DNA from: Octopus vulgaris | Taxonomy: Eukaryota | Reading direction: 5' to 3' | Assembly: GCA_951406725.2 (NCBI GenBank) | Contig: OX597819.1 | Coordinates: 85,002,001-85,066,000, forward strand | Length of the DNA: 64,000 bases | Shown here: piece after piece, positions 35,281 to 60,237 of the stretch | How the letters are laid out: each line of letters begins with the position of its first letter | How positions within the stretch are numbered: position 1 is the first letter of the stretch | Notes under the pieces: generated by a model | What the model saw: only the letters and a program-made list of their open reading frames with translations | The model's database searches: none | What the model was told of the DNA's origin: nothing | Made by a program: the position numbers and the translations under genes

Positions 35281-35736
35281 TTTTAGAAATATTAAATTTC
35301 TAAATATCTCGGAGAGATATGAGCGGTGGTGAAGCGATAGAGTGGTCGTATACTGTCAACTTAACATGACAGTCCCGTAAAGGGAATCACACACCGCTAT
35401 TTAGCCCTAGGAAGCATCAACGCTTCCTGTCGACTTTGATACATTTCCTCCGAGATATTTATAAATATATATATATATATATTTGCGAAGGTTTGGCAAA
35501 CATCTGAACTAGCGGGCCTTACTACCCAAGACTGATGACGAGCAAGACACAAAAACATGCATGTCTCTAGGTGCAGGCCCTAGCTGGTGGAGGTGCTTGT
35601 CTCCCCTTCGCAAATATAAGGACACAGGAAATGTGTCAAAGCCGACAGGAAGCGTCGATGCTTCCTAGGGCTAAATAGCGGCGGTGTGATTCCCTTTACG
35701 GGACTGTCACGTTAAGTTGACAGTATACAACCACTC
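35281..35736. mobile_element. Inverted-repeat element with a central hammerhead relic, inserted in the Gypsy protease
   Basis: Arms 35340-35449 and 35626-35736 are inverted copies, with an inner IR atatttgcgaagg/ccttcgcaaatat. Direct repeat catatgtgata at 35270-35280 and 35736-35746. Confidence 0.8.
35526..35571 (+). ncRNA. Decayed type I hammerhead ribozyme
   Basis: ccaaga CTGATGA cgag-caaga-caca AAAA catgcatg TC tctagg. Stem I has 5/6 pairs, stem III is palindromic and the triplet is GUC. GAAA is mutated and stem II eroded. Confidence 0.55.
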
Positions 35737-36704
35737 ATATGTGATAATTATCACACTAAGACATTGTTATGGATGTCTTGCGTTCGAAGACACTATGCAC
35801 AGTAATATCAAAGTTTCTGTACTATCACATCTTTATGGCGATGTTTTGCTTGGACATGCTTTTCTAAACCAACACTGTAAAGTTTTGATTTCTTTTAACT
35901 ACAACAAAGTACTTTTTACATTATGTGGCTTGCTCATTGCACCCATGGATCCTCCTGTACGTTTTGCTCGTTTGGCGCTCACTTTTATGCATACTAATCA
36001 CTAGTTTTCAAATCAACGCCAATTAAAAGAAGAAAATATCGATCTGTCTGTATACCTTTGTTAATTCAAGTCCAAGTCACATCTAAGTAACGACACAAGA
36101 AAATGGTCAATGAATGAAATCGTCGAACAATAAACCGTTATACACTCTTAGATGCATATCTTAGACTAGAAAACATGATCAAGAAAATTGTTCAATATGA
36201 TTTTTTTCTGTCACTTCATCAGAAGATCGTCTACAAGAAAGAGTGGATCAGAGATGATGGAAAACGTTTCTCTTTGTTCGAAACCTGAAAGCTTTTTCAG
36301 TCAGTTTTGACTTAGTGTTACAAACGGTGCGGCCTGTTTCCAAAGAATAATTGATAATCTGATCTAAAAGTTAATTCTCAGGTAACGTTTTCTTATATAA
36401 TGTGACAACGTGTGGAAACGCAAAACAGAAGCATAATGCTAATCCAGCGAACTTCCTCAGCAGCTCAATGTCATTCGTCTTACGATCAATGACTTGAAAT
36501 TTATAATCGCTGAATGTGCTACTACGCTTCTGGGATATGATGTTTCCAAAATGCAAAACCAGATCTTGATAAACTACATTCACTTAAGTAATTAATCCCT
36601 TCTACAGACATAAAAGCATATGAATATGTTTGCTTATTACACCCAGTGAATTGCTACCAGTCGTGTGACTGCTTACAGTTTGCAGGCAAACGGTTGACAG
36701 CACT

Positions 36705-36900
36705 CTTTTACCCTTTTACTTGTTTCAGTCATTTGACTGTGGCCATGCTGGAGCACCACCTTTAGTCGAGCAAATCGACCCCAGGACTTGTTATTTGGAA
36801 GCCTAGTACTTATTCTATCGGTCTCTTTTGCCGAACCGCTAAGTTATGGTTGTCAAGCGATGTTGGGGGGACAAACACAGACACACAAACATATACACAC

Positions 36901-36969
<69 letters not shown>

Positions 36970-37130
36970 TACGACGGGCTTCTTTCAGTTTCCGTCTACC
37001 AAATCCACTCACAAAGCTTTAGTCGGCCCGAGGCTATAACAGAAGACACTTGCCCAAGATGCCACGCAGTGGGACTGAACCCGAAACCATGTGGTTTGTA
37101 AGCAAGCTACTTACCACACAGCCACTTCTA
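36705..37130 (-). mobile_element. SINE family A
   Basis: Reverse complement of 5352-5765. Confidence 0.85.
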
Positions 37131-38387
37131 CACCTGTTTGGAAAGTTATCTTTTTGTCACTGAGATCCAAAGACTTGAGGATCGGTAAGTAAGAGACTGT
37201 CCTGTTTAATGCTTTCTGTTCCATAGATGTTTATTGTGCACTGCCACCAATGTTTTCACAAACGCATGTCAAATTACATGTCTTTTCTACAACAATCAAT
37301 CAAAATAAAATGCTCAAAATAAAAGTCTCAATCAGATATCCGCTTCTGGCGGATCTAACGACAGTTTTACAAAATTTGAAGAGTGACGACTTCTCTGCCC
37401 GGACGATTGCAATAAAAAAATGTCGGCTCCGGTACTGTCTAATTATAAGAAAAAGAAAACGAACGACGATGCTTCTACATAATATAAACTGTCATTCCGG
37501 AAATAACAGTCACCCCTCACTCAAAACGCTCCTTACTGTGGAAAAAAAAATGAACGCTGAGGGTAACGCAGTTCGAGATAGAGCATTTTAAAAAATTATT
37601 TAGGGTAGCCATGGCTTGATTATTTTCGACTATAATTTTGCCCAAGCTAAACAATAACAACAAATATGTGCGTTAATCTGATGTTTCTGGTTTTTCAAAA
37701 TCAGATACTATTCATCAAAGTAACTCAGACTGGGTTGATCAGGCCTCTACCGGCGTTCCGGTAAATTCTGCTCTGATGAAGTTATTCATTTATTCTGTGT
37801 TTGAAAGTTACTGTTATCATTGTGGGTTTTACTGTGCGGGGGTCGTTCTTTTAGTGGTTTAATTAAACAAGAAAAAAGCAACACCTACGTTTTATTTTAG
37901 AGCCTCTGACATTAGTGGGAGGGAAGGAGGGAGGAACATATTTTCAAACTGGAACCGGAAACCTATCCCCCGAATGTTTGTGGCAGAGAGGGCTCCTCTA
38001 AAGGTATCCAAAAGTACAGGTAACACCTAAGTTGAGGAACAGTTCCTTTAAAGGGTTCTAAAACGGTTCGTAGATGACATTTGGTGAGATCGAATCCGAA
38101 ACGATGTAATTCCAAAATGAAATTATTAACCACGCAGTCATGCAATCAGCATTATGTAACATTACACACAATATTTCGCTGATGTACCCCTGTACTACGG
38201 CAGGTCATTGGTAGAGTGATTTTGTGTTTCAAACAGACGTTCATTTTGTAACTGCTGCAATAAATCTTTGAAGATCTTCAAGCTAAGATAGCAGAAGTGA
38301 AAGATTTACGAAGATAACTTGTGACTAGGAACGTTAATGAAGCACATTAGAGCATTTAAAGCGAAGCGATTAAAATGAAGGCCACAG

Positions 38388-38388
38388 T

Positions 38389-38422
<34 letters not shown>

Positions 38423-38580
38423 GTTGCTGCTGCTGCTGCTGCTGCCGCCGCCGCCGCCGCCACCACCACCACCGCCACCACCGATGCTGCCGCCGCCTTT
38501 GCTACCACCATTGCTGCTATTGCCGCCAATACTGCTGCCGCTACTGCTTCCACTGCAGCCTCCGCTGTTGCTGTTGATAT
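38388..38580. repeat. Compound trinucleotide microsatellite (ACT)n(GCT)n(GCC)n(ACC)n, degenerating
   Basis: Directly visible; it produces the low-complexity ORFs in several frames. Confidence 0.9.
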
Positions 38581-38905
38581 TGTCATTATTGTATATCTCA
38601 CGGTTAATCTTGATCGTACAGATTTTTGAATAAAAAATGTTTCAGCCATGACCATTCCGTCTTTTGTTCAGATACACTGCAGGTAAATCTGTAAAAACCT
38701 TCAATAATGGACGCATACTTGAAGGAATAAAACGTTTATCAATCACGAGATTCTGGGATTGATTCCACTGGGAGGTACATTGGAAAAGTATGCTATCCCA
38801 TAGCTTAGATGCTTAATATGTTGTAACGTGATAAAAAAATGTATACCTCTATCTTGTTTTGTAGACCATATTTCTTGTTTATATGTTGGTGGACTATTAA
38901 TACTA

Positions 38906-39471
38906 TTGGGTTGTCCAGAAAGTTCGTGCCGATTTTTAAAGGAAAGGAAAAGGTCAATAAATACTTGCCATTACATTTTTAATCAACCAAATATGAACCA
39001 TTTTGTTGCATAATGCGTCTCCATCTTTCCTTTAACTTGAAAATATCCTCTTCCCAGAATTGAGGTAGTTTCATGGCAACGAATTCATCAAGGTATCTTT
39101 TTACGTCATCCAAGGAATTGAAATTTTTATCATTAAGACTATTCTGCAGAGACCTGAATAAGTGGAAATCCGAAGGAGTAGCATCTGGTGAATATGGCGG
39201 GTGGGGTAACACATCCCAGCCGAACTGCAGCAATTCTTGTCTGGTTCCCAAAGCATCAAGTGCTGAAAATGAACTTTCTTATCTTACATTTTAAAGGGTT
39301 ACATAATTAACACAGGCAAAAGGAACATAAATCTTTTCCCACGAAAAGATAGCTTAAACTGTGCTCTAAATGGAAGCGTAGTCAAATCCTATTTTATGGA
39401 CTCAACCATGTTCTAAAATAAGTCGAAATGTAAGCTACTATAAATCGGAACGAACTTTCCGGACAACCCAA
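38906..39471 (-). mobile_element. Internally deleted mariner element retaining both TIRs and the transposase C-terminus
   Basis: TIRs ttgggttgtccagaaagttcgtgccgattt / aaatcggaacgaactttccggacaacccaa with TA TSD. The ORF contains GWDVLPHPPYSPDATPSDFHLFRSLQNSL (YSPDL motif). Confidence 0.9.
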
Positions 39472-40267
39472 TAGTTTCATTTCTTTATACCAGTGCCAGT
39501 GCACCTCTAGCCTTATTGCTGTGCTGTCGGGAGTTTCCCCTTCATAAGTTGTGGTAGTGAGATGCAAGGAAGGTTGCCATACGCCTTACTGTGCAACATT
39601 TATGGAAACCAGACTTCTTGTCTCTGGATCATGACAAGAAGGTGAGGCGTTTCTGTGAGATGTTGTGCATGCCTTATTGAACTTAAAACTTCTGAATATG
39701 AATTGCTGAATTTAGCCCGCAGGGGACACAAGTAGCTAGCCATCATCATCAAGTATGTTTGCAAATCTTTATGTCTGCCAACATCTACGTATGAATAATG
39801 TGTAGGTGTGCATGACGCGCACCCGCAACTATGCACAAATATGAGAAGTTAGCGACATCGAATTTTTGAAAAAAGATAGAAATAAATTGATATAATATAA
39901 TATAATATAATATATATTATATATATATATACACATACATATGTACATACATGTGTGTATGTGTGCTTAAATATACTATATATATTTATACATACACACA
40001 TGGGCATACACACATACACACTAAATATCAGATATAAATATAATTAAAAATCTCTCTTTCCTTCTCCCAGCTCTATCTCTGCATACATATATGTGCATAA
40101 GCTTTATTTTTTTCATGACTCGAGATTCTTGTAGCTGTAATCTTCGGGCAAGATCACAGGGCCGTGAAACTCAAGTAGCAAGAACAAGAAATTTAGCTTA
40201 AATAAATAAATGAATAAATACTACATGTACTCAGTACTCATTTCCTCTTTCGCTGACATTTCTGTGC

Positions 40268-40319
<52 letters not shown>

Positions 40320-41622
40320 CTCCCGTCAACACCCGTTAAAAGGAGGGCTGGGCATGCCGTGGTTGATGATGCGCAGACACGCGCTGAGACTGCGGCATCT
40401 CTGGCTCTATGTAGACGACGGTGAACAGGTGTGGTCGCCGTTTGTGAGGCACGCTTTCCCGCAGCTCGTCTCCATGACCGAACTGCAGTCGTGGATCAAA
40501 AAGAGGCCGAGGAAGGGCGAATGGCACCGCGAGTGTCGCGTTGCTCTCAAGCAACTCTGCCGTCCTGGGTCGACCTTAAGTGACTTCAACACAACCAAAG
40601 CATTCTATAGGGGTTTAGTGGAGGGGAGGTACGACGACGAACTCGGGGCGAACCTGGACGTCGACGAGGAGTACCTGACCCGCCTGTTCAGGACGACCTT
40701 CGGGCCAGGGCCCATGGACAACTTCCAGAGATCCCTGGCCTGGCAGTGCTACCGAGAAGCGCTACCCGTTCGGGATAAGCTCTACAGACACGGCTCGAGA
40801 AACACGGGGCCGACCTGCCCGAGATGCGGTCAGAGCGACGAAACCGTTCTGCACGCACTCGTTCAGTGCCCAACAATTTCCGACCTGTGGGCTTATGTCG
40901 AACAACTGCTGTCACGTGTGGGACGAGTCGGTTTATCAGCTGAGTCTATCGTCAATATTGTCACGCCTCCTTCCTTCAAACGGGAAGGAAGAGCTATTTT
41001 CATCATCCTTGTGGCTATGGCGAAAGAATGTATCTGGTGGACGCGTCTGAAAGGATTGGAGACAAACACTTTCCTCTCTGGTCAATCTCTCATCAACTTC
41101 TTCAAGTACCACTTGAAAAGGAAAGTGAGAGTAGAGAGGCAAGTTTTGTCTAGCGAATGTTTTAAAAAAAGATGGGTGAATGTAGCAAGAATGGCACGTA
41201 TGAATGACGAAGCCACCTTGAGCATAGTCCTATGAACCCAGAAATCGAAAACAGAGAGTTGCTTATTTGCAAAAAAAAAAAAAAAAAAAAAAAGAAATAT
41301 AAAATGTGACTTCATTGACCGAGGTTACCGTGGTCTTTTCCGTAGGCTTTTCTTTCCACGGGTAAACCTCACCTGTCCTCCCCTTTACACTTCATATTGA
41401 CATTTCTGTGATAACGATCCCTATTGATCAATTTTTTTTTCCTCTCCCCCTTTTTTTTAACCCCCTTTTTTTGTCCTCTTTCTCTCCTTTTACGATCCCT
41501 TTTGATCGAAACTCCCCCTTCCTTTTTTTTTTTTTTTTTTTTTTTTTTAAACCTTCAAAAGAAAAGCTCTACCTTGTAATTTGTTCTATCTGTGTGCAGC
41601 CCTGTGTGGCTAATAAAGAAAC
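40320..41622 (+). mobile_element. 5'-truncated L1/Tx1-type LINE: ORF2 C-terminus with zf-RVT, plus 3' UTR, inserted in (CTAT)n
   Basis: Uninterrupted frame from HPLKGGLGMP to CPRCGQSDETVLHALVQCP..W and K..IWWTR, stop at 41235. GC-rich relative to the flanks, ends taataaagaaac, and has (TATC)n on both sides. Confidence 0.85.
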
Positions 41623-41700
41623 ATATCTATCTATCTATCTATCTATCTATACATATACGTATATATACATATGCGTATATATACATATGCGTATATATAC

Positions 41701-41746
<46 letters not shown>

Positions 41747-41897
41747 GCATTTATATATGTATGTATATATATGTACGTATATATATATATATATATACAC
41801 GTATATATATATACTACATATATGAGTAATCTGTACGTATGAGTGACAACGTGTGTATATATGTGTACAGAGAAAATTGTAAGCATATCTGTCTATC

Positions 41898-41975
<78 letters not shown>

Positions 41976-42618
41976 ATTTGTGTGTGTTTTTTATATCGTA
42001 AACTTAAGTTGACAGTTTTCTGCCTAAGCCATCTACAAAAAAAATCTACATTAAAAAATGCCTTATGGAGAAACTCTCAACTTAAGAACGCATGCACGCA
42101 CGCACGCCTGCACACCTGCACGCACACAAAAAAAAAAAAAACACACACACACACACACAAACAGAATCGTAGAATACACGCGCACATGCAATGTGACAAG
42201 CACGCCCAATTAAAAAAGACCATGTTTGGTGAGTCTTCGGATGTTATGAATTTTACGTGTATGAATATTATTATTATTATTATTATTTAAAAAAAAAATT
42301 AATGATGTCAAGTGAAGATGCTTTCGAGTGCTTTTCTCCCCTTTCGTGACATTTTTGATCAGGTTTGTCAATGATATTTTAAATTTAGTTTTGTATTTTT
42401 GTTATTTAGTTATTTATTAAATTTTCTTCGGATTTGGAAAGAAAATTTAACGTTTGCAACTCAAATTGCAACAACTATGAAAATAACTATTTCATTTTTA
42501 CAGAAGAGTGAAGACTGGAGAGCTTTGAGAGGTGAGCTTTATAGTAAGATCTGATGTTCATGATTTGCTAAAACCTTACATTCTCTAATGATCTCTCTTG
42601 GCAATTTCATATGCATAA

Positions 42619-42900
42619 CTATGCAAACACTATGTCACAAAGACTAGCCTTCCTCTTCAAGATCATGTAATACACTCTCATCAGCTGTCGACAGCCTATA
42701 AAACTGAACTTAGGTTCACAATGGCATACAGATCTTACATTTTGTACAGAATCATTGTCACATTCACGGTCACCACAGGCTGAAAAAAAAAGAAAAAAAG
42801 TAAAAGAAAAAATAGAAAGCATTCATACTGTCGATTGACAAAGACTCACTCTTCAATTCACTGCAATGTCTATGTCACAGATGCGTTCTTTCCGCTCTTT
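42619..42900 (-). pseudogene. Possible decayed EGF-like, Cys-rich exon pair split by a 70-nt intron
   Basis: GTGAGT donor at 42849 and a strong polypyrimidine-CAG acceptor at 42780. The phase-1 join gives ..HRHCSELK-TCGDRECDNDSVQNVRSVCHCEPKFSFIGC, with an in-frame TGA just upstream. Confidence 0.3.
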
Positions 42901-43358
42901 TTCTATTCTACTGTTAGTTACTACAACGGCCTCTGTTCTTAGAGTCTTTATTAGTTTGTCTAGTTTTCCTATCGCCTCTTCCCAGGTTCAATTAAATTAC
43001 CCGTTTAACCTTTCGCTACCATAGAATCGGCAGTTATCAGTGCGTTGCACAGGATGCGTTGTAGACTTAGTCTTTATCTTTTTTTTTTTACTTGTTTTAG
43101 TCACTGAACTGCGGCCATACTGGGATACCGCCTTGAAAGGTTTAGTCGAACAAACGGAGCCTAGTCTTTAGTTTTTTTTAAAGTCTGGTATTCTATCGGT
43201 CTATTTTGCCGAACAGCTAGGTTGCCGGAACATAAACAAACCAACACCTGTTGTAAAGCAGTACACACACATACACGTAGACATACACACACACACAAAT
43301 AGTGATGCAGATAAAAACGCTTGGATTTGATATATAAAATATTCATTCATGCATGTAA

Positions 43359-43394
<36 letters not shown>

Positions 43395-43485
43395 CAACAA
43401 TTGAGGGTAAAATTAATTAATTAATTATTAATCAATTTCACCAAGTGTTCAGTATGTAAAGGGACCATTTAAGGCGAATTCAAAT

Positions 43486-43873
43486 TATTACATTATATAA
43501 AAGGGCTTAGTAAAATAAATTACTTTGCCACATACTGAACTCATTAGAAATAGTAGCTAAAAAAACTTTTTAAAAACTATTTCTAATACTTAAAGAAAAT
43601 CTCTCTCATATAGTGTTTGCTCAATTCAACTCACGAAAGTATGGGGGTAAAGACATTAAAAAATCAAATGCAATGGTTCTCAAATAACCTTTGCATTTGA
43701 TTTTTTAATGTCTTTACCCCCATACTTTCGTGAGTTGAATTGAGCAAACACTATATGAGAGAGATTTTCTTTAAGTATTAGAAATAGTTTTAAAAAAGTT
43801 TTTTTAGCTACTATTTCTAATGAGTTCAGTATGTGGCAAAGTAATTTATTTTACTAAGCCCTTTTATATAATG

Positions 43874-43878
<5 letters not shown>
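43486..43878. repeat. Near-perfect palindrome, 188-bp arms with a 17-nt spacer, embedded between (TA)n tracts
   Basis: 43486-43673 is the reverse complement of 43691-43878, with one mismatch seen. Confidence 0.95.
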
Positions 43879-43934
<56 letters not shown>

Positions 43935-44614
43935 TACAGAAAGAAACAAAACCGGTAAATATTCAGAAGGTGAACATTCATGTTTAAACATATAGACATT
44001 CATATATTTACAAAATAAATGCATTTACATGGCGTACAAAAAATTCAGAAAAGGGGAGATGGCATGATATTTTAAGCCCGGCAGCTGTTTCTAAGGGTTC
44101 AGAATTACGTAATAGTTGTAATGTTAATAATTGGCAGATGGGGGTATGCCAAAAATTCAAGGATACGCAACTAGGAAAGGATGCATATAAACATTACCGT
44201 AATACCGGCCTCCTTCGTTATGGTGGAAAGATCGGCAAATACCAGTTTACATCATTGAGAGAAAATTTAAGGTTAGAATGGAAGAAGACGAAGGTGAGCA
44301 AAAGCAGGTAGAATGAGGAGGTAGGTGGTTCAGTGGTAGGGGAGTGTTCAAACAGGGGAAGGGCAAGAGGAGATAAGGGAAGGACAGCTGGGCGAGAGAG
44401 GGGGTGAGTGATCAGAGGATTCAGTAGAAGTGGTGACTCAAGAAAGGTAGGCATGCTTTACGAAATGGCTCGAATGTCTAAGTTCAAGTTAATTCTGTAC
44501 ATAAAAGCATCTAAGAAAGAATTATTGACATTACTGGCAAATATAGTAAGTTCTCGGTAACCGTGAGCGAGCTTCCATTCTTGCTTCAAACCATTTCAAT
44601 ATTTTAAATTAATA

Positions 44615-45790
44615 GGCGGCGAGCTGGCAGAAACATTAGCACGCTGGGCGAAATGCTTAGCGGTATTTCGTTTGCCGAGGTCGACTTTGCCTTTCATCCT
44701 TTCGGGGTCGATTAAATAAGTACCATTTACGCACTGGGGTCGATATAATCGACTTAATCCGTTTATCTGTCCTTGTTTGTGCCCTCTGTGTTTAGCCCCT
44801 TGTGGGTAGTAAAGAAATAGGTATTTCGTTTGCCGTTACGTTCTGAGTTCAAATTCTGCCGAGGTCGACTTTGCATTTCATCCTTTCGGGGTCGATAAAT
44901 TAAGTGCCAGTTACGCACTGGGGTCGATATAATCGACTTAATCCGTTTGTCTGTCCTTGTTTGTCGTCTCTGTGTTTAGCCCCTTGCGGGGAGTAAAAAA
45001 ATAGGTATTTCGTCTGTCGCTACGTTCTGAGTTAAAATTCCGCCGAGTTCGACTTTACCTTTCATCCTTTCGGGGTCGATAAATTAAGTACCAGTTACGC
45101 ACTGGGGTCGATATAATCGACTTAATCCGTTTGTCTGTCCTTGTTTGTCGTCTCTGTGTTTAGCCCCTTGGAGGGAGTAAAAAAAATAGGTATTTCGTCT
45201 GTCGCTACGTTCTGAGTTCAAATTCCGACTTTACCTTTCATCCTTTCGGGGTCGATAAATTAAGTACCTGTTGCGTACTGGGGTAGATCTAATCGACCGG
45301 TCCCCTCCCCAAGAATTTCGGGCCTTGTGACTTGAGTAGAAAATAATATTTTAAATTAATTGGGCGGTAAGCTGGCAGAATCGTTACAGTGCCGGACAAA
45401 ATGTTTGGTACCATTGCTTCTGACGTTCTGTGTTCAAATCCTGCAGAGGTTGACTTTGTCTTTCATCCTTTCGGGGTTAATGAAATAAGTACCAGTTGAG
45501 CACTTGGGTTGATGTAATCGACTTACCTTCTATTTCGAAATTGTTGACCATGTGCTAAAATTTGAAGCCAATATTTTAAATTAATTTGGTGGCAAGCTGG
45601 CAGAATTGTTACTGCACCGGACAAAATGCTTTGCAGCATTTCTTCCATCGTTCTAAGTTCAAATTCCGCCGGGCTTTACTTCGTCATTTGTCCTTTGGGG
45701 GTCAATAAAATAAGTGCCAGTGGAGCACTGGGATCGATGTAATCGACTTGCTCCCCCTTTCAAAAACTGATGACCTCGAACCCTGCATCA
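44615..45790 (+). mobile_element. Tandem array of SINE family B (four ~185-bp head-to-tail units plus two older copies)
   Basis: ggtatttcgt-tg-cg...ctttcatcctttcggggtcgat..tagccccttg..aaata repeats from about 44662, 44820, 45004 and 45189. Separate degenerate copies start at about 45362 and 45590. Confidence 0.85.
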
Positions 45791-48370: not shown

Positions 48371-48585
48371 GGCGGCGAGCTGGTAGAAAACGTTAGCACG
48401 CCGGGCGAAATGCTTAGCAGTATTTCGTCTGTTTTTCACGTTCTGAGTTCAAATTTCACCGAGGTCGACTTTGCCTTTCATCATTTCGGGGTCGATAAAT
48501 TAAGTACCAGTTGCATACTGGGGTCGATCTAATCGACTGGTCTCCTCCCACCAAATTTCGGGCCTTGTGCCTAGAGTAGAAAAGT
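48371..48585 (+). mobile_element. SINE family B (further copies at about 48680-48890, 50165-50365 and 52015-52215(-))
   Basis: Full head ggcggcgagctggtagaaaacgttagcacgcc and core. Confidence 0.8.
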
Positions 48586-49676
48586 AACTTGAGTTTCTAC
48601 TTCTATTACAATAAAACAACTGACAAAGAAGACAAAAAATAAAAACTGTTTTTAAGCATTATTATTTTGTGTTTGACTAAAGTGGCGAGCTACCAGAATC
48701 GTTAGATCTTCGGACAAAATATTTTGCGGTATTTCTTCCGGCTCTTTACGTTCAAATACCGCCCAGTCTAACATTGACTTTGATTCTTTCGTGGTCGATA
48801 AAATAAAGTACCAGCCAAGTACTAAGATTGATGCAACCGGCATGCCCCTCCTCTCAAGAATTTCTGGCCTTGTGCCAAAATTAGAAAGAATTATTTTATG
48901 TTCAGACAGCAATAGAAATAACATATTTCACTTACAAACTAATGATAAATCAATTACTAGAATCAAACACAATTTTCCAAGTTATTACACCATTAGTAAC
49001 CACTCCATTAGCAACATAGTAATTAATATACAATACAGATTGCTAAATCCAAATGGTAGAGAAAAAAATAGTACTTTTTCACAAAACTGTCATACCTCGA
49101 ATTTTTTGGAAGAACGATCAAAGATTTTCGAAAACTATAATTAAAAAAAAAAAAAACAAATTGGGAATCAACAGATTCGCCCTCTAGGCAAGCGAAATTA
49201 AATAACATAAAAGAATCTCCAGTGAAATAAGAATAGTTTTAATTTTATGGAGTTGGACTGCTTTTTTTTTTTATCTTGTTGACTAATCCCAGTATAGAGT
49301 GTCTTCTTTGTATTGTATATTTGAATTTTTTTTAGCTCGGTGTTTTTGTGAGATTTAACGACACCAGGAAATCCATTAAAAACTAAAAACCAAGCGTTTT
49401 AAAGAAAATAGATGTATGTCCATTGAGAAATCTAGAGATAGGTGTAGTGAAAAATATTTCTTCGGGTCATAAACAAACATCAACTGCTTTGTAAAAGAAG
49501 GTGAAGTGAAACATAGACAAGCAATAACCGGTTGTTTATAAGCTTCATAAATTATGATTCTTCCTAAACACAACAATATTTTGAAAACAACACACAAATG
49601 TACAACTGAAATACAAAAGAGAAACATTATTGTTCCTAAATCTCTCAATGGGAGATATTCATTAGCAGTACTTTAA

Positions 49677-49776
49677 AGTAAAGATTATTTACCAATCTAA
49701 TATGGCAGTCCCGGTTGGGATGAATGCTACTGTAGCAACCGGGACTGCCACATTAGGTTGGCAAATAATCTTTACT
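49677..49776. repeat. 100-bp fold-back palindrome of the conserved terminal hairpin motif
   Basis: Arms 49677-49717 and 49736-49776, turning at tgctac-t-gtagca. Homologous to 19846-19890 and 35350-35400. Confidence 0.85.
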
Positions 49777-51574
49777 CGAAATACAAAGTTAATATGTTAT
49801 AATAGTTTCACGTTAGAATGATGAAAACCCAGCGATGATTTTACGTTTTAGAAGCGTAAGAACATCATTGAACTTCCTTCATTCCAGCGTGAAACATGCA
49901 AATTAACTTTGTTTTTATGTTATTCGTTTGTTTATGGCGTTTTCTAAAATACTTTCTTGCTCAACAGAACACTACCATAGTCAACCGAAACGAACAATTC
50001 TTCATTTCATTTAAGCTTGATGAATAAACTCACTTTCCTTAATCAAATGTAACTGTCAATGAATGATAATACTTATTAAGTTTAAAGCTGTCATTCAATT
50101 GAATTTAGGAAATATACCTCCAATGTCTTAAGAAGTATACTTATGTTAATAATTGTACTGCAAAAGGCGGCGAAGTGGGCAATATGTTTAGCGCCATTTC
50201 GTCCGTCTTTACGTTCTGAGTTCAAATTCCTCCGAGGGTGACTTTGCCTTTCATCTTTTCGATGTTGCAAAATAAGTACCGGTTGAGTACTGGGGGTGGG
50301 GGTGGTCGACTTAATCGACTCACTCATTCCCGAATTGCTGGCTTTGTGCCCAAAACTGGAAATCAATATTTGTGCTGCATTTAATTTCCTGTGCCGCCAG
50401 TAAGGCAAAAGAGTCTTTCACCTATTCTCTGTTCTGGGGTGAAGTTGAACTGCCGGATAGTTGGGATGAGGAGGGGTGTATGGAGGTGCTTTTTACGGTA
50501 GAACAAGTAAGAGAATTTGAAGATGAAGTGATTCATGTTTTTGGGTCAATAAGAAAAGTGATAGACTTGGATGAGAAAAAAGAACTGGAAAAGTGGTACG
50601 GGATGAAATTAAGAGACTATGTATTTGTCAGAAGAATGTAAGAAGAGGAAAAGAGGACAGATAAGTGATGTTATCCGATGGGGCGGGAAAAATCGCTTTC
50701 ATCTTTCATTTTCACCCTCTCATTTTTATCATTTTTTTTTTTGTGTTTTATGTCCCCAATGTGTTGTTTGTCTCTTATCTTCGTCAAACCTTTATGGGTA
50801 ATAAAGAAATCAGAGTTTTTCACCTATTCTCTGTTGAATGGAAATTACCCGAAATGTCAGACATTCTACTCTATACGGCAATTGAAGTTGCCTAAGAATC
50901 TACGAATGCTCCTTTCACTACTTGAGCCCAGTAAGGAAGGTTGGGCCTCCAGCCAGGCCTTTCGTGATAGTCTTAAAGCCAGGAACTTTTCAGCACTCCC
51001 TCGTAAATGTAAAACTAAATCTCTGTTGTCCCTTATAGGTATTACGTAAACCTCTTTAAGACACCATTTTTACAATCGGGCCAGCGAGAGATGCTCTAAG
51101 TGGTTGTTCGACCTGCAAGAAATTGCAACCAAATTTCCTTTAAATCAAACTTTACCATCCTAAAAAAAGGTGTGTGTGTGTTGGGGGGGGGGGCGGGGGA
51201 TGTACATCAGAGATTGAAGTCATAGATAAATTATGTAAAAATAAGCTAAACGAGTAAAACAAAGAACAAAACGGGATGGTTACCCCTGTAACATCTTAAA
51301 TGTTCATAAGTCTGTTCAACCAGAGTTCATGTTGTGATAAACATCACCGTCGTCGTCGTCCTCCTCCTCCTCCTCCTCATCATCATCATCAGCAGCATCT
51401 CCACCACCATTATCGTTTCATAGATATGGATAATCTTCAAGCAACAGAACGTTAAGCAGGATAGATTATTCTGCTAATGTCCAGCATATGGAAGTATTAT
51501 ATCTGTATATTTTTTAATAGTTTATTCGTAATACATATCTTTAGTATCACATTTTCTCTTACTGAACACTGCCG

Positions 51575-51728
51575 GGCGTAGGCACGGCTGTGTGGTTAAG
51601 AAGCCTGCTTTGCAATCACGTGGTTTCGGGTTCGGTCCCGCTGCGTGACGCTTTAGGCAAGTGTTTTCAACAATAGCCCGACCAATGCCCTGTGAATTTG
51701 ATAGCAAGAAACTGTGTGGAAGCTCGTC

Positions 51729-51783
<55 letters not shown>

Positions 51784-51935
51784 CATATATGTATGTATGT
51801 ATGTGTGTGTGTGTGTGTGTGTGCTTGTCTCCCCAGCACTGCAAAAGAGCTTGATTGAATAAGTACTAGACTAAACCCTTCAAGGTGGTGCCCCAGCATG
51901 ACCGTAGTCTAATTGACTTAAACATGCAAAAGATA
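51575..51935 (+). mobile_element. SINE family A
   Basis: Head ggcgtaggcacggctgtgtggttaag, an internal microsatellite and the family 3' end. Confidence 0.7.
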
Positions 51936-54900
51936 AAAGAGTTATAATATCAATCTTATTTCGTTGACATCTTAAGGAAATATTATTTGTATTAGTCCCC
52001 ATGAATATTGATTTCAAATGTTGACACAAGGCTAGCAAGTTCGCGGGTGGGTGCAAGTCGATCACATCGACCCTAGTGTCCTACAGGTACTTATTTTATC
52101 GGCCTCGAAACGATGAAAAGCAAAGTCAACGTCAGCGGAATTTGAACCCAGAACGTAAAGACGGACGAAATGTCGCAAAGTATTTTTAACAATTCTGGCA
52201 GCACATCGCCTTAGGCCTCGTGAATATTAATAAATAATTATTTTGCCCATTATGAGATTATTTTGTGGATATATTTCATTCATGAAAAAAATTTAGGTTT
52301 TCCATATAAAAAATCATAAATCGATATCACGGTAATTTGGTGTGGAGGTGGATATGTCTGTAGGTAAAATATAAGGTTTAATCTAAGATACGTTTTTTTT
52401 TACAGCATTACTATGCTGACATATAATTAGACCAAACAGAGCGTTTGCTTTAAATTTTAAAAATCTACGTTCATGGAGGTCCGTATAACTTCAAACTGTT
52501 GTTGTTGTTGATGCGTAGATCCAAAGCAGTATGAGTGAAAGGATCTGAGATTAAAGTAATTCCAGCCATGACTATCTTGTCTTCTTCTGTATCTAGAACT
52601 ACATTGACTAATATATTCTTCTATTTGGAAGAAATTTAGTTGCTTTTTCTGGCATGTCGAGCGACGGTGTAAACAAAATGAAACGGTTGGGCGTTGGTGT
52701 TTGGACGATGGCGATCTCGCACAGTGGAATGGACATTGAACAAGATTTGGAGTTGTTTTCTTTTCTTTGGTGACAGTACTTTCTGTTACTGGAGGTAAAC
52801 ACAAACACACACACACAAACCGTGCACGCATAGAAATACACACACACAGATAGAAACAGAGAGAGAAACATTACTATTTATTAATTGAAAAGCATTTCTG
52901 TGTTTCATCAATATTTCACTTACCATCATATAATAAAGTGACGCAGAAAGTTAAGCGAAGTTTTCTAGTTGAATAGTTGTGATTACAAGTTAATTATCGA
53001 CTAGAATAAAAACAAAATTTTCACTCAAAAGGCCTCAGGGACATTGCGTCCGATGTCAAATAAGTCAGCTTCAAATCAGCAACGCCGAGTAGGTGGGCGC
53101 CCGAACAGCTTCGCCAGAACATCTCACAAACCTGCATTAAAGCTATTTCGTTGAATGGAAAACTTTGAAATAATGTTTATCTATGCAGTCATATTGAGTT
53201 AAATATTTACACTCTTAAAATGAAAATCTTGTAGATTGCTTGATCAGCAGCTGATTTATTTTGCTTTATATTTTACTGAAGTAAAAATTACTACTTCATG
53301 AAAATTATCTCCTCAGTTAAACACTATTGTTAACAGTAGCATTACTATATGCGGAGCAACTGATCTTAATGGGGTGATATCCATAGCTTGTTTTGAGATT
53401 TTAAACACCCCAAGAGAGAAATTTAGTCTACAAATTGCTTGGATAATCTCAGTTGATAGAAAGTTTTCATTTTCCAACCCGGTATTGTATGTATTACTGC
53501 ATTAAGTATGTAAAAATATCCTGGTGAAATTTGCATTTAGCTTGCAGAATGCTACCCAGAAGAATATTCTCTTAACCATATTGTTGATTTAGGGAAATTT
53601 ACTTTGTTGTATTAGTTTTAGAATAATATTATTTCAATTTAACGATCGGAAAAGTGATATATAGCTAAAAGCTATAAAATCTTAGATAAATCGGTATAAT
53701 GTAAACAAACTTATTAAATAATTTAAAGACGCTAGAATGTTAGAACCAAATTGTTTCATTATCAGAGAGACAAATATATTTACGCATACACATACGCACA
53801 TACATTTCCAATATATCACGAATTTCGTCTAGTTTCATTCTTATTTGTCAGTTTCGTTTATTATCTTATATTTCTTATTTTCTTTTCTCTCTCAAGAATT
53901 TGAAACATCAGTTCATGTAATCATTAAATTGAAAATCGTTGCAAAACTTCAATGAAATATGTTTATGTTATCATAACTGTCAACGTTCAGTAAAACAAAA
54001 ACACGACGTTTAAGATGTATATTAATAAGTTAGTAAAAGATACAGATGCGCAGAGACAACGAGCCATCAAAAAAATAGACATCCTAACAATCTGCTTAAA
54101 TAATATATGTTACTTCCAACAGTTCATAAATACAGGCTGAATAATGTTCATGCAGAGAAAAGTAATATATTAAAAAAATATTGTATTCCATTTTTTAAAA
54201 ACTTCCTTTTCTTCTCTTTGATTAAGTTTTGTCATATTGATTTATAAAATTCCCAAGAATTATTCGTCTCTATCATTTGGGGGTGATTTAATACTTTTAT
54301 TTATATACGATTATATTAGTACGGTACAAGTAGTTTTATATACACTAGGCCTTCTTAAACTTTTCCAATCACATCCCTCTCTTTTCAAAAAGAAATTTGT
54401 TGTGATCCCCCTCCGTTTGGTCATTTGGGCTTTTCCTTGCTTGAGATACCTCGCATATTTTCATTAAAATCGGTCATTTTCAATGTTTCTACAAAAGACC
54501 AGACGTTTAAAAATCTGCTTTAGAAAACAGTTGACAAAATTCTTGTTTTTTTTGAGGACACGCCACTCCTGAATTAATTTCTTCTTCATTTAGGAATAGT
54601 CTTAAAGTAGGCACCAATTATTCTATGACTGGAACTAAATTGTTAATTTTTTTTTCATTCAGAAATGGGAGACTTAGAGTAAAAAAAATTATTCACGTAC
54701 ATTTAGTAAAAATATATACGTTGTTTGTTTTCTTTTTAACATAAAATAATTAAGTAATTTATTTTTATGTTAAGAATTCAGATAAATAAAAATCAGGAGT
54801 AGCTATTGAATAAAAAAAATCAAATTCAAAATCAACGTTGTTAATATCAATATACAAGTTTAAAGTTTAATGTTTTAAGTTTAAAAAGTACAAAAATATA

Positions 54901-57094
54901 AAAATCATTTCAAAAGTAACATTTCTTCCGAAAAAAAGAATCAAATTAAAAATTAGAGTTAATGTCACTTTCAAATTTTGGCACAAGACCAGCAATTTCG
55001 CAAGTTGGTCGATTACTTTACCTCCAGTGCTCAACTGGTACGTATTTTATGCAAACAAGAATTTCTAATTTCTCAATTATTTTGTAAAGGTAAAGTAAAC
55101 TGGCATTGCAAATACGGCTCATTATGTTTCCTCTGTTTGGCTCGGGATTATTTCGTATTCATAGGGTTGCTACTTGCAAATTCGGGATACTCCATGAAGT
55201 TTATGACACTTCAGTTAAATTATTTTAAACACAATAGTCTATAAAAGGGATTTTTTCCTGGACAGAAATTGCAGCTTTTGGCGTTTCAACTACACACATA
55301 CATTAACTACATTATATTCATAAAGCTTTTACTACAGAGCTGCTTCTATAGCATACTTCAAATTTTATTTTGCTTATGTTCTGTCATTGTATACCAATGT
55401 ATAGCTAATACGCTATTCCTAAATACTTTATACAAGGTCTTTTGTTTCTGAAGTGACATGAGTGCGTGACATTGAAAAGTCGCAACAACGGCGATTTACA
55501 TATATGTCACTCTCGTGGCCATTCCTGGGTCGATTTCGTTTCGCCTAGCTCTGAAGTATATTATTTTTGTAGCATAATTTCCAGATGGAAATCACAGTTT
55601 CTCGTGTTTCAACTACGTACTTGCTTTATATTGATAGAGTTTTTACTATAGAGCTGCTTCAATTACATAATTCAAATATTATCATCAACATTTTCTGTGG
55701 TTATATAATTTGCTGAGTGCAACCACTTATAAATGGGCAAGATATTTTGTCTTACACCTGAAAAAAAAAAAAAAAATGAAAGTTGCTGTGACCATTTTTG
55801 AGCTAATCACAATGATACGGTAAAGGAACTGATTTCGAGTCCTCAAAGTTCGAAGTTAACATTTTTAGTTTCGTAAGGTAGGCAAGAGAAATATTATGTT
55901 TTATCGATTTTTCGAAAACTGCACTTTTAAAAATACGCTTATTGCCACAGGTTATTTTTATAGCAAAAAGCAAAAAGCTCCATGTAGTTTGTATTGTGAC
56001 GTATGGTTTCGAAAAATCCTGTTCATTATTTCGCAGCTTATAATGGGAAAATATAATTTCACCTCGAGTTATTGTAGCTAAAAATCAATGAGATATTGTG
56101 CTATCAATCCATTTTTGTACAAAATAATTCATTTAGAATAATTTTATACAAAATTTGATACGAAAAAATTTGTTTTGATACGAATAATTTTTAATACTAA
56201 TTATTTATCAGTTTCTGAAAGATGCATATTTTTTATCCAATTTAAATAGTTCTAAAATTAAATTCTAAAACAACCAAGTTTCTTCACTCCTATCACGAAA
56301 AAAACACCCAAAAAACAAAACGATAATAAGCGTATAACGTTAACGTGTTTTCCTATCTCGTTTCACTAAATTTTACACAGTAGAAGTTCACGTCACGTTT
56401 TGCACTTTTTTATTGAAAGAAGTAACTGCAAGCGGCTTCATGTGCTATATTTATCAACAATTTCATCTGAGGGCATGATGCAAAAACCTGAAATTAATTT
56501 GCAAATTAAAATAACTTGCGATAAAAATCGAGTAGAATAAATTTAGATATTGTAGTAAAAATGGTACTTTCTGTTTTCTGAAATCATTTGGAGGCATGAT
56601 GTCGCTATGTCTGTTCCACTATCACGTGGAATAAAAATTAAAATAAGGAATGTTATGTCATTATATTGAGATAGCAAATATTTTCTGCATGGTTATTATT
56701 AAATTTTAAAACTGTGGATTTGTTTTTAGAGTTATAATCACAGTTTTGCATGAAAAATTACAACAGCCTGCAAATAATGATGCTAAAGGTAGAAAAAAAT
56801 TCTCTTCTGTACTCGCGACTTCGCTGAACTTTTATGCGACGAACCACAAGAGGGCCTGTTGTACACAAATGATTTCTTAACTTCTGTAGCAAATCTTTTC
56901 TAGGAATGAATTCTACATTCCCGAATACCTCTTCGAGATTCGTTGTTTGTAACCAGCAATACATACATTCAGTATTATAAAACTGCAAGCATGAATCATT
57001 TATGCAGGTTAGCAGACACGCCTTCCAACATTTATTTTGGCCAACCACTTCTCGCAGTGACTGAATGAGCTACACTAGTATGTGAATCCACCTC

Positions 57095-57352
57095 TGATAC
57101 GTGGCACTTGGTCAACAAGGGAGTTCGATGCCGCTGCCCGCATCTATGTCTCCTGCCGAGAGGTAGGTTCATCTGGGACCCCTGACAAGAAGAGATCCAC
57201 ACCATGCAAATCTCTCAGGCATTTAGGGAGGATGTTGAAGAGCTGTGGTCCTCTGAAACCCAAGCTGTTGCAGTATCTGGTCCTGTATTTTGATGGTGAT
57301 ATTGAAATATTTGGCACCATGCAGTGGTGCCTCGTTCTGCGGTTGAGGTAAC
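57095..57352 (-). mobile_element. LINE 3'-end fragment (CR1/L2-like ORF2 C-terminus)
   Basis: RTRHHCMVP...[38 protein letters not shown] resembles the NS...RGP.LFN.LP..LR....LD.FL...PD.P LINE tail. Confidence 0.6.
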
Positions 57353-57438
57353 TTTGAATGCCAATATATATATCTATATCAACATACACACATATATAAA
57401 TATAAAATATATACATATTTATGCACATATGTATGTAC

Positions 57439-57493
<55 letters not shown>

Positions 57494-57796
57494 CATACAT
57501 ACATGCATACGTATCTATTCCTGTGGTTGCTCGTAAGGCGTTCACAAACAGAATAAAGCATAGAAAATTTCACGAAGTAGTTTATGTAGGCGACTTGTTT
57601 GCAGAGTTAATCTTTTATTGATTCTTGTTGACCATGTTCACAAACAATTAAATGAATACATACATGCATACATATGTACGTACATATTTAATATAATCTG
57701 CATAATAACTCCATAACGGTCATTTCAAAGTTCCTGTTCGGCTATCAGCTACTATATGCCACCATACAGCTGAATTACTCATTTTACTGGATATAT

Positions 57797-58028
57797 ACGA
57801 GGAATGAACAGGCTTTAATCACAAATCACAACAATGTTAGTTGCTTATTTTTCCACATCATAATATTGCATAAAATATTATATAAATATATATGATCCAG
57901 CAACAGCTGTGTACCGACAGGCCATCAGGCGAGTGGCTTTAAAACAACTAAAACTCAGCAACTAACAGCTGTTACCAATGCACAGAAACGATTGTTGTGA
58001 TTTGTAATTAATGCCTGTTCATCTCATC

Positions 58029-58032
<4 letters not shown>
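57797..58032. mobile_element. Probable mariner-type MITE
   Basis: Inverted repeats atgaacaggctttaatcacaaatcacaacaat / attgttgtgatttgtaattaatgcctgttcat in TA context. Confidence 0.55.
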
Positions 58033-58093
<61 letters not shown>

Positions 58094-58347
58094 GTAAATA
58101 TATAGAAGTAAATATATGGCACAACGAAGTACCGATATTTACTGGAAAATATGTATAATTTTCCCTCACGGGCTATTCTTTACTGGAAAGCAATACTCTC
58201 GTATTGCATTACTATATATATATATTTATATATATATATATATATATATTGATAAAACGGTAAGATAACAAAAGAAAGAAAGAGACCTCAATATTATGTA
58301 AATAGAGGAAATTTATCTATACAATATGTTACATTACTCGGTAGTCA

Positions 58348-58410
58348 AGATAAAACTCTGAGTTTCAGATGCCGAAGTGGAAATCCACAACACCATCTCT
58401 TCGGTTATCT
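58348..58410 (-). ncRNA. Type I hammerhead ribozyme variant in the PLE 3' region (pLTR)
   Basis: Minus strand: agataa CCGAAGA gatg..gtgg-attt-ccac..catc t GAAA ctc-a-gag TT ttatct. Perfect 6-bp stem I, extended stem II, near-palindromic stem III and a GUU triplet. Position U4 is C. Lies ~185 nt downstream of the endonuclease stop, on the same strand. Confidence 0.75.
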
Positions 58411-58594
58411 GGCTATTTGAAAACGTTGTGAAAAAATACCGTTAAAAATGAAGGGAAATTACTCTGTTATAACTCTGCTTTGCCTGCGTACTTATACATC
58501 GCTCGCATTTTTCGTCATAAAAATTATATAAAAATACATAAAAATATATAAAAATATATAAAATCTTCTTGGGACATAACACAGAAAGCATGTT

Positions 58595-59279
58595 CTATCC
58601 GTTTTCTTTAGGGGACCAAAAACGTAACAGAAATTTAGTCACATGTGGGCATGATCCGAAAAGCTCTGTCCTTGTATTTAGACATGTGGTAGGGTCTAAG
58701 CTGCTTTTCCAGATAAGCCATCTCTCCATGTCGCATAAACCGCACCTTCCGCTGCCGTTAGTGTAGGGCTTACATCTGGCCAAAATCTTCCATTGTATGT
58801 TATAATCGACACCTTTATCTCTTAAAGACCAAATATGATTGGATAATTGTGTCGCTTTTCTTTTGTTCCAGTGCCTAAAGCTCAAAGTGTGGTTATTGAA
58901 CCTGGCCTTGAAATTACCCTCTGTCAGGCCCACGTATTTCTTCGTCGAAACGGTGTCTTTAGTGGTTATAGAGTTTACGGTAGCTTCATATATGATGGTC
59001 TTGGACATGCAAGCTCCATTTAGCGGGCACAATTCTTTATTCCTGCATGAACAGCTGTTTTCTTCTTGTGTTTTTTGTATGTTATGATTGATTATGTTTT
59101 TAAAATTGGTAGTTGAACTAAAACTAATTTTTAAATTGTGTCTATTGAAGAGTTTCCTATAAGCATGGTTAACTGGAAAATGTCTATCTATCAGTGCTAG
59201 GAAATATTTACCTATATTGAAGGCCACCTCGGGTGAGTAAGGGGGCGTAAACCAGATGACCTTCCTATTTCTATTTCTA
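58595..59279 (-). CDS. PLE GIY-YIG endonuclease (C-terminal domain of the RT-EN ORF, 5'-truncated; frame intact in the left arm)
   Basis: RNRKVIWFTPPYS...CSCRNKELCPLNGAC..IIYEATV...KKYVGLTEGNFKARFNNH...LSNHIW...CGLCDMER. Shows GIY/YIG-like motifs, the catalytic-type R and E, and the Cys-rich linker typical of Penelope-like elements. Confidence 0.88.
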
Positions 59280-59945
59280 AAGGTCATCTGGTTTACGCCC
59301 TTACTCACCCGAGGTGGCCTTCAATATAGGTAAATATTTCCTAGCACTGATAGATAGACATTTTCCAGTTAACCATGCTTATAGGAAACTCTTCAATAGA
59401 CACAATTTAAAAATTAGTTTTAGTTCAACTACCAATTTTAAAAACATAATCAATCATAACATACAAAAAACACAAGAAGAAACAGCTGTTCATGCAGGAA
59501 TAAAGAATTGTGCCCGCTAAATGGAGCTTGCATGTCCAAGACCATCATATATGAAGCTACCGTAAACTCTATAACCATTAAAGACAACGTTTCGACGAAG
59601 AAATACGTGGGCCTGACAGAGGGTAATTTCAAGGCCAGGTTCAATAACCACACTTTGAGCTTTAGGCACTGGAACAAAAGAAAAGCGACACAATTATCCA
59701 ATCATATTTGGTCTTTAAGAGATAAAGGTGTCGATTATAACATACAATGGAAGATTTTGGCCAGATGTAAGCCCTACACTAACGGCAGCGGAAGGTGCGG
59801 TTTATGCGACATGGAGAGATGGCTTATCTGGAAAAGCAGCTTAGACCCTACCACATGTCTAAATACAAGGACAGAGCTTTTCGGATCATGCCCACATGTG
59901 ACTAAATTTCTGTTACGTTTTTGGTCCCCTAAAGAAAACGGATAG
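59280..59945 (+). pseudogene. Inverted second copy of the PLE GIY-YIG region with two frameshifts
   Basis: Same sequence as the left arm, with a 2-bp deletion at about 59300 and a 1-bp deletion at about 59480 that split it into ORFs 59314-59520 and 59508-59945. Confidence 0.88.
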
Positions 59946-60190
59946 AACATGCTTTCTGTGTTATGTCCCAAGAAGATTTTATATATTTTTATATATTTTT
60001 ATGTATTTTTATATAATTTTTATGACGAAAAATGCGAGCGATGTATAAGTACGCAGGCAAAGCAGAGTTATAACAGAGTAGTTTCCCTTCATTTTTAACG
60101 GTATTTTTTCATAACGTTTTCAAATAGCCAGATAACCGAAGAGATGGTGTTGTGGATTTCCACTTCGGCATCTGAAACTCAGAGTAACAT

Positions 60191-60237
<47 letters not shown>

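What the first reader, a model, noticed from the sequence alone, without database searches (positions are those of the whole stretch)
35281..60198. Four independent tail-out fold-back palindromes suggest a shared integration mechanism
Seen: palindromes at 35340-35736, 43486-43878, 49677-49776 and 58318-60198. Orientation can be read from the hammerhead, ORF or terminal motif at 35.5, 49.7 and 59 kb, and there the 3' ends face outward. At 43.6 kb the same orientation is only suggested, by the (g)ct-ctatttcta motif it shares with the hammerhead-bearing 32.8-33.05 kb element. Two of the four sit in (TA)n. Inference: the cDNA folds back on itself so that both junctions are element 3' ends, making these retroelements a generator of long dsRNA- or cruciform-forming DNA.
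Basis: partly seen in the sequence, partly recalled or inferred. Interest (0 to 1): 0.7.

Follow-up and report, generated by a model that had tools for sequence, protein, structure and literature searches.

The report
Head-to-head Penelope-like retroelement palindromes
Four real DNA palindromes: one is a mirrored pair of ends of a Penelope-like jumping gene, two more are likely the same, the fourth is unassigned, and this layout and its double-stranded-RNA consequence are already described for such elements.

Summary
All four palindromes are real and far above chance. The 59-kb one is a 5'-truncated Hydra-clade Penelope-like element (PLE): GIY-YIG ORF and hammerhead point outward, arms 99% identical, 16-nt loop, ~69-nt tail on one arm only, (TA)n at both ends. 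The 35.5- and 49.7-kb ones belong to one other repeat family. A third, single copy at 19.8 kb carries a degenerate hammerhead in register with the 35.5-kb one, so tail-out is supported. Short loops (7, 16, 18 nt) favour cDNA snap-back at the centre. The 35.5-kb locus is not a simple fold-back (147-nt spacer, inverted copy of the flank), and the fixed outer ends point to a second priming event. Head-to-head PLE insertions, one-sided tails, (TA)n targeting, self-priming and siRNA from the inverted arms are all published. Transcription of these loci is untested. Verdict: new members of a known kind; interest 0.22.

The parts
58250..58318 (-). D: ~69-nt tail, left arm only, running into (TA)n at 58227-58248
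   Evidence: Absent from right arm; can pair with the sequence just 5' of the hammerhead, -16.5 kcal/mol, 10 of 500 shuffles as good, region chosen after seeing the fold
58319..59263 (-). D: left arm, 3' part of a Hydra-clade PLE, 3' end outward
58595..59278 (-). D: intact C-terminal ORF piece (linker + GIY-YIG endonuclease), reading through the loop
   Evidence: 40-42% identity to RT+endonuclease proteins P0001/P0002; Hydra motifs; Pfam GIY-YIG E 0.012, below cut-off
58348..58410 (-). D: type I hammerhead, core CCGAAGA (U4 to C), stem III ACTC-A-GAGT
   Evidence: same layout as Hydra hammerheads in File S2 of PMC8557442
59264..59279 (.). D: 16-nt loop, contributed by the left arm
   Evidence: left-arm ORF continues through it
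59280..60198 (+). D: right arm, two homopolymer frameshifts and a 24-nt deletion that removes the hammerhead cleavage site; ends in (TA)n 60195-60228 with TATA shared
35321..35339 (-). A: putative 19-nt tail on the short arm
   Evidence: 58% GC against 25% in the flank; ends in the same CCRCTC as the arm; ATAT on both sides of the whole insertion. Inferred
35340..35449 (-). A: short arm (110 nt), 3' end outward
35447..35479 (.). A: central insert: inverted copy of the left flank (14 nt exact) then (TA)n
   Evidence: 0 of 1000 shuffles reach 14 nt
35480..35736 (+). A: long arm (257 nt), degenerate hammerhead at 35529-35568 inside a long predicted hairpin, terminal stem-loop and ACTC end
49677..49776 (.). 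C: 41-nt arms around an 18-nt loop; 3' terminus of the A family on both sides
   Evidence: nhmmer E 1.2e-4 and blastn E 1.3e-7 to the 19.8-kb copy; direct match to A weak, E 0.14-4; terminal hairpin kept with one two-sided change, 54 of 500 shuffles as good
43393..43485 (.). B: 93-nt one-sided extension between the left arm and (TA)n 43364-43391
   Evidence: 11-nt inverted match to the arm; 59 of 1000 shuffles, 18 of 681 real windows. Suggestive only
43486..43878 (.). B: 193-nt arms, 7-nt loop, right end in (TA)n 43877-43910; family and orientation unassigned
19833..20050 (-). Reference copy: single, non-palindromic member of the A/C family inserted into the TIR of an older element; degenerate hammerhead at 19997-20039
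   Evidence: nhmmer E 5e-8 to A
32840..33053 (+). Reference copy: single hammerhead-bearing 3' end running into (TA)n; no inverted arm
   Evidence: best hammerhead in the window, 32859-32917; no relative in the window

Best explanation
The 59-kb palindrome is a head-to-head pair of 3' ends of a Penelope-like retroelement, the 35.5- and 49.7-kb ones likely are too and the 43.6-kb one possibly, and they likely form when the element nicks both target strands, each nick primes reverse transcription at the RNA's 3' start sites, and the middle is closed by a short fold-back of the new DNA. Shown: palindromes, outward ORF at D, one-sided extensions, short loops, a shared fixed end in the A/C family, a flank-templated insert at A. 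Inferred: the first cDNA stops early and its 3' end snaps back on itself (B, C, D) or on the neighbouring flank (A); a second cDNA primed at the opposite nick, from the nearer of two start sites, fixes the other outer end and anneals to the snap-back strand. This gives two 3' junctions, a tail on one side only and a near-perfect hairpin, which would yield dsRNA only if the locus is transcribed through.
For: D meets the testable Hydra criteria and its hammerhead matches the published Hydra layout. A and the 19.8-kb copy have hammerheads in register, 204 and 200 nt from the outer end. Four of the five family ends stop at the same site and one runs 19 nt further, while the inner ends vary from 41 to 257 nt. 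Loops of 7, 16 and 18 nt are shorter than independent truncation predicts: combined p 0.019 (uniform) to 0.0002 for the four loci, 0.07 to 0.001 without B. At D the loop comes from the tail-bearing arm, as snap-back predicts. At A the tail is on the short arm and the 5' extension on the long arm, so neither arm is a subset of the other. Literature: a PLE protein cleaves and extends both strands and starts at two adjacent RNA sites that define the tail (PMC11167929); R2 cDNA snaps back on itself or nearby target DNA (PMC11371274); inverted 5'-truncated copies, one-sided tails and (TA)n targets are typical of PLEs (PMC8557442).
Against: Four loci only; the loop statistic rests mainly on D and B and on assumed truncation models. 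The 19-nt tail at A is inferred; if it is flank, one cDNA with two template switches explains A. B and D are fully explained by one cDNA folding back and ending at TATA/ATA microhomology. B has no hammerhead, ORF or homologue. No ORF links the A/C family to a PLE, its hammerheads are degenerate and not significant singly, and Rfam finds no hammerhead at 32.8 or 35.5 kb. Microhomology at the centres cannot be read without family consensus sequences.
Confidence: 0.5

Rival explanations
1. Pure cDNA fold-back: one cDNA primed at one nick folds back, copies itself outward and is joined to the far flank by microhomology.
For: Short loops; at D the short arm is a subset of the long arm and ends at TATA shared with (TA)n; at B it ends at ATA; R2 precedent.
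Against: A has a 147-nt spacer, a flank-templated insert and a probable tail on the short arm. At C both arms end flush at the family terminus. PLE protein extends both strands in vitro.
Confidence: 0.28
2. Self-priming on an antisense RNA template before integration, giving a head-to-head double-stranded intermediate that is then inserted.
For: Proposed for head-to-head Penelope structures with palindromes at the junction (PMC3846280). C has a small native palindrome at its centre.
Against: Later in vitro work shows target-primed extension with start sites that match genomic ends. The flank-templated insert at A shows that its junction formed at the target.
Confidence: 0.1
3. B (and perhaps C) is a palindromic MITE of a cut-and-paste transposon that happens to sit in a TA microsatellite.
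For: B is formally flanked by TA on both sides and has no retroelement signature. The window holds six TIR-type repeats, one with an 8-nt TSD.
Against: B has a one-sided extension that ends in a second (TA)n, as at D, and may pair with the arm (p about 0.03-0.06). B read outward aligns end to end with A read outward better than 490 of 500 shuffles, but 188 of 820 real windows score as well and the family profile does not find it. C's family occurs as a single-ended copy at 19.8 kb, which a TIR would not.
Confidence: 0.25
4. Assembly artefacts from fold-back chimeric long reads.
For: D's right arm has two homopolymer deletions that break the frame.
Against: Symmetry stops at element ends with unrelated flanks on both sides; arms differ by substitutions, several at CpG sites in A.
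Confidence: 0.03

Closest known systems
Hydra-clade Penelope-like elements, e.g. Hydra-1_Obim and Penelope-13_HM (Craig et al. 2021, PMC8557442; section 11, passages, supplement parts 2, 52, 53 read)
   Same: C-terminal GIY-YIG with CxCx5C linker, no internal Cys pair, CxxC and CxH; 3' hammerhead of the same layout; (TA)n target. Penelope-13_HM is annotated with a 5'-truncated inverted copy at its 5' end.
   Different: D is a different family: by eye its C-terminus and 3' UTR resemble Hydra-1_Obim, but the D motifs searched in the supplement gave no hit. Best database relative is 47% identical. Tail ~69 nt against the usual 30-40; hammerhead core has U4 to C.
Inverted pLTR / head-to-head Penelope insertions (Arkhipova et al. 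2013, PMC3846280; passages and section 8 read)
   Same: Head-to-head inverted repeats, optional tail on one inverted end, palindromes at the junction, self-priming proposed.
   Different: Their model primes on antisense RNA; the loci here fit target-site events better. Here the units are short 3' fragments without an internal ORF-bearing tandem.
PAc Poseidon element in vitro (Frangieh et al. 2024, PMC11167929; parts 1-2 of 4 read)
   Same: Both strands cleaved and extended, AT-rich targets, two start sites that define the tail.
   Different: Another clade; joining of the two strands is left open in the parts read.
R2 cDNA snap-back junctions (PMC11371274; passages read) and L1 twin priming / foldbacks (10.1101/2024.12.14.628481; passages read)
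   Same: cDNA 3' end primes on itself or on nearby target DNA; two priming events at one site.
   Different: There the inverted piece generally does not reach the element's 3' end; L1 twin priming inverts a different, upstream part (established knowledge).
Animal non-LTR retrozymes (10.64898/2026.07.22.740005; abstract and outline only)
   Same: Short hammerhead-bearing non-autonomous sequences tied to PLE pLTRs, like the A/C family and the 32.8-kb element.
   Different: Retrozymes are tandem arrays; no tandem of these units is in the window.
Penelope inverted repeats as siRNA source in Drosophila (PMC3681739; passages read)
   Same: siRNAs map to the inverted regions of rearranged copies.
   Different: No RNA data here.

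Membership tests
Hydra-clade PLE (locus D) | C-terminal GIY-YIG endonuclease after an RT | tested here: met
   D's ORF piece aligns with the C-terminus of RT-bearing proteins P0001-P0004; Pfam GIY-YIG only below cut-off
Hydra-clade PLE (locus D) | CxCx5C linker instead of Cx2-5CxxC | tested here: met
   CSCRNKELC found, Cx2-5CxxC absent (criterion)
Hydra-clade PLE (locus D) | [quoted passage not shown] | tested here: met
Hydra-clade PLE (locus D) | Canonical 3' hammerhead | tested here: inconclusive
   Full layout present at 58410-58348 but the core has U4 to C; cleavage untested
Hydra-clade PLE (locus D) | Insertion in (TA)n | tested here: met
Hydra-clade PLE (locus D) | RT motifs RWK and DKT, no IFD; placement in the RT tree | not testable with these tools
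   RT is truncated away in D; the 42%-identical relative P0002 has DKT
PLE-derived 3' ends (loci A, C) | Hammerhead near the 3' end | tested here: inconclusive
   Degenerate in A and in the 19.8-kb copy, in register; each alone within chance; C too short to hold it
PLE-derived 3' ends (loci A, C) | Fixed 3' end, variable 5' end, optional tail on one side | tested here: met
   4 of 5 ends at the same site, one 19 nt longer; the tail assignment itself is inferred
PLE-derived 3' ends (loci A, C) | Link to an RT/GIY-YIG ORF | not testable with these tools
   No ORF match in these short copies; full-length partners would lie outside the window
PLE-derived 3' ends (locus B) | Hammerhead or PLE homology | tested here: not met
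   so B is not filed as a PLE
PLE-derived 3' ends (locus B) | One-sided tail and (TA)n at both ends | tested here: inconclusive
   Architecture present; that the extension belongs to the element is only suggested
MITE / cut-and-paste TIR element | Symmetric fixed ends with a superfamily TSD | tested here: inconclusive
   Not met for D; A has ATA or ATAT, B a formal TA inside a microsatellite, C none; positive control 14437-15369 has an 8-nt TSD
MITE / cut-and-paste TIR element | Family occurs only as paired TIRs | tested here: not met
   For A/C: single-ended copy at 19.8 kb. No second copy to test B
Non-LTR retrozyme | Tandem arrays of hammerhead-bearing monomers | tested here: not met
   No tandem of these units in the window

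The most novel reading that the evidence does not exclude
PLE integration combines two-strand target priming with cDNA snap-back, so that about half of all insertions (3 of 5 PLE-attributable ones in this window, 4 of 6 with B) become near-perfect hairpins, making Hydra-type and hammerhead-bearing short PLEs a genome-wide factory of dsRNA substrates for editing and siRNA and giving a readable record of the unresolved joining step.
Probability: 0.15. Interest if true: 0.55.

Novelty: new member of a known kind. Interest (0 to 1): 0.22.

Why it matters
The pattern is a known hallmark of Penelope-like elements, so the finding is mostly ordinary. What it adds is two repeat families not found in the one paper supplement I searched, and junctions clean enough to bear on an open point: how head-to-head PLE insertions are joined. 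Craig et al. list this as unresolved and Frangieh et al. leave the later steps unvalidated. A genome-wide table of loop lengths and short-arm ends would separate fold-back, twin priming and the combined model cheaply.

Tried and rejected
Rfam on the whole window gave only microsatellite-driven and other sub-threshold matches and no hammerhead (79 matches); local Rfam scans at 32.8 and 35.5 kb gave nothing, and at 43.5 kb three sub-threshold matches. The strict hammerhead scan first suggested none at 35.5 kb; the relaxed scan and the homologue revised this. I considered from recall that the GAGT end of A/C is a tRNA-like SINE head (5' outward); rejected because the hammerheads place it 3'. Naiad and Neptune were considered for D and rejected on motif order and linker. 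The GCTATTT motif was rejected as an orientation marker. T/A skew of B read outward (0.13) lies within background. B against four hammerhead-bearing elements in both orientations: best 6 of 200 shuffles among 8 tests, not held up by real-window controls. Twelve short motifs from A, B, C, D and the 32.8-kb element searched in the Craig supplement gave only unrelated chance hits; line wrapping could hide matches. Host genes around the loci: 98 of 134 listed open frames of 55 aa or more beyond 28 kb went to Pfam (36 left out as lying in repeats or the loci themselves); 1 of 98 hit, a sub-threshold PAZ match not confirmed against solved structures. Short exons would be missed. Arm differences at D show no A-to-G excess (1 of 4 substitutions on the sense strand). 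Eight paper searches listed no paper devoted to loop lengths or junctions of PLE palindromes; subscription literature is not covered.
Full report
Observation. Self-comparison of the window recovers all four palindromes. I call them A (35340-35736), B (43486-43878), C (49677-49776) and D (58319-60198). Arm identity is 104/111, 191/193, 38/41 and about 99%. Scores of 92-3178 bits compare with maxima of 30-52 bits in 15 shuffled windows. Symmetry stops at the element ends, which argues against chimeric-read artefacts. The same scan lists 44 local inverted repeats of 32 bits or more, among them six TIR-type elements, one with an 8-nt target duplication. A palindrome here is therefore not by itself a retroelement.

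Locus D. The left arm encodes an intact C-terminal piece on the minus strand, 40-42% identical to the two best RT plus endonuclease relatives; the best hit of similar length is 47% identical. It has the CxCx5C linker, no cysteine inside the GIY-YIG core, and the CxxC and CxH motifs that define the Hydra clade (PMC8557442 section 11). A type I hammerhead lies 191 nt after the stop with the layout of published Hydra hammerheads, although its core has U4 to C. Both 3' ends face out into (TA)n. The left arm has a ~69-nt tail and supplies the 16-nt loop. The right arm has two homopolymer frameshifts and a 24-nt deletion, and ends at a TATA shared with the microsatellite. By eye the closest family in the supplement parts I read is Hydra-1_Obim. 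That, with recalled resemblance of the window's SINE-like repeats, suggests a cephalopod host; this is a lead, not a result.

Loci A and C. These share a terminus with a third, single copy at 19.83-20.05 kb that interrupts the TIR of an older element. A strict scan finds no hammerhead at 35.5 kb. A relaxed descriptor based on the Hydra table ranks 35532(+) third and 20033(-) fourth of 28 candidates. Neither exceeds chance alone, but they align in register, 204 and 200 nt from the outer end. Four of the five ends stop at the same site, and the inner ends vary. This is the behaviour of a retroelement 3' end, so tail-out is supported for A and, through the shared terminus, for C. No ORF ties this family to a PLE. 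A is not a plain fold-back: the long arm extends 147 nt further 5', the centre holds an inverted copy of the left flank (14 nt exact, 0 of 1000 shuffles) and a (TA)n run, and a probable 19-nt tail is on the short arm.

Locus B. It has the architecture of D: (TA)n, a 93-nt one-sided extension, 193-nt arms, a 7-nt loop, (TA)n. It has no hammerhead, ORF or clear relative. A MITE is not excluded.

Mechanism. Loops of 7, 16 and 18 nt are shorter than independent truncation of two cDNAs predicts (combined p 0.019 to 0.0002 by model, 0.07 to 0.001 without B), so the two 5' ends are probably coupled, most simply by snap-back. Snap-back alone does not readily give outer ends fixed at the family terminus (A, C) or a tail on the short arm (A). 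A PLE protein cleaves and extends both strands and initiates at two adjacent RNA sites that match the tail (PMC11167929). R2 cDNA snaps back on itself or on nearby target DNA (PMC11371274), which is what A's centre looks like. I therefore favour two priming events with a snap-back closure (0.5), ahead of pure fold-back (0.28) and antisense self-priming (0.1). These steps are inferred from four loci.

Comparison with what is known. Inverted 5'-truncated copies, one-sided tails and (TA)n targeting are described as typical of PLEs (PMC8557442 passages), and a Hydra-clade consensus is annotated with an attached inverted copy. Head-to-head arrangements and a self-priming explanation were published in 2013 (PMC3846280 passages). 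siRNAs matching the inverted regions of Penelope were reported in Drosophila (PMC3681739 passages). Hammerheads on opposite strands 100-700 bp apart were noted in Schistosoma (PMC4209133 passages). The dsRNA claim cannot be tested here: no host exon was found beyond 28 kb among 98 frames scanned, the only host gene evidence is a CPSF1 exon at 6.6 kb, and there are no RNA data.

Verdict. Real, largely as described, and an instance of a known PLE trait. New are probably the families and the junction detail. Novelty: new member of a known kind. Interest 0.22. The most novel reading not excluded, a combined priming and snap-back route that makes hairpins from a large share of insertions genome-wide, has probability about 0.15 and would merit about 0.55.

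Noticed in passing
window 58331-58354 / 60185: The 24-nt deletion in D's right arm starts 1-3 nt upstream of the predicted hammerhead cleavage site; may reflect a template jump onto a cleaved RNA end, or chance.
   Followed up: partly
window 58250-58300 with 58398-58450: D's tail can pair with the strand that forms hammerhead stem I, an alternative fold that would block cleavage (10 of 500 shuffles, chosen post hoc).
   Followed up: partly
window 14437-15369 and 27896-28304: MITE-like elements with GGATCTTTTC ends; the first is a near-full-length palindrome with an 8-nt target duplication, and 13750-13895 repeats its interior at 99%.
   Followed up: partly
window 19585-21669: Old TIR element (76% arms; ends look hAT-like from recall) whose left TIR is interrupted by the A/C-family copy, with TAAAC on both sides of the insert.
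   Followed up: partly
window 7626-8018, 12924-13140, 38902-39475: Short-TIR elements with TA-type ends, mariner-like from recall; a Mos1-type transposase fragment lies at 11453-11773.
   Followed up: no
window 6631-6792: Exon of CPSF1 (E 2e-5 to solved CPSF1 chains).
   Followed up: partly
window 40327-41232: C-terminal fragment of a LINE with a zf-RVT domain (E 3e-8), followed by a poly(A) run at 41271-41297.
   Followed up: no
window 44673-45297 and 45345-45749: Tandem arrays of 184-nt and 225-nt units of a SINE-like dispersed repeat.
   Followed up: no
window 49725-49737: C's loop ends in a small palindrome centred at about 49730, so C can also be read as a 1-nt-loop palindrome with a 9-nt deletion in the right arm.
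   Followed up: partly
window 49779-49916 and 57791-58039: Weak palindromes (56 and 53 bits) next to C and D, near the shuffle maximum.
   Followed up: no
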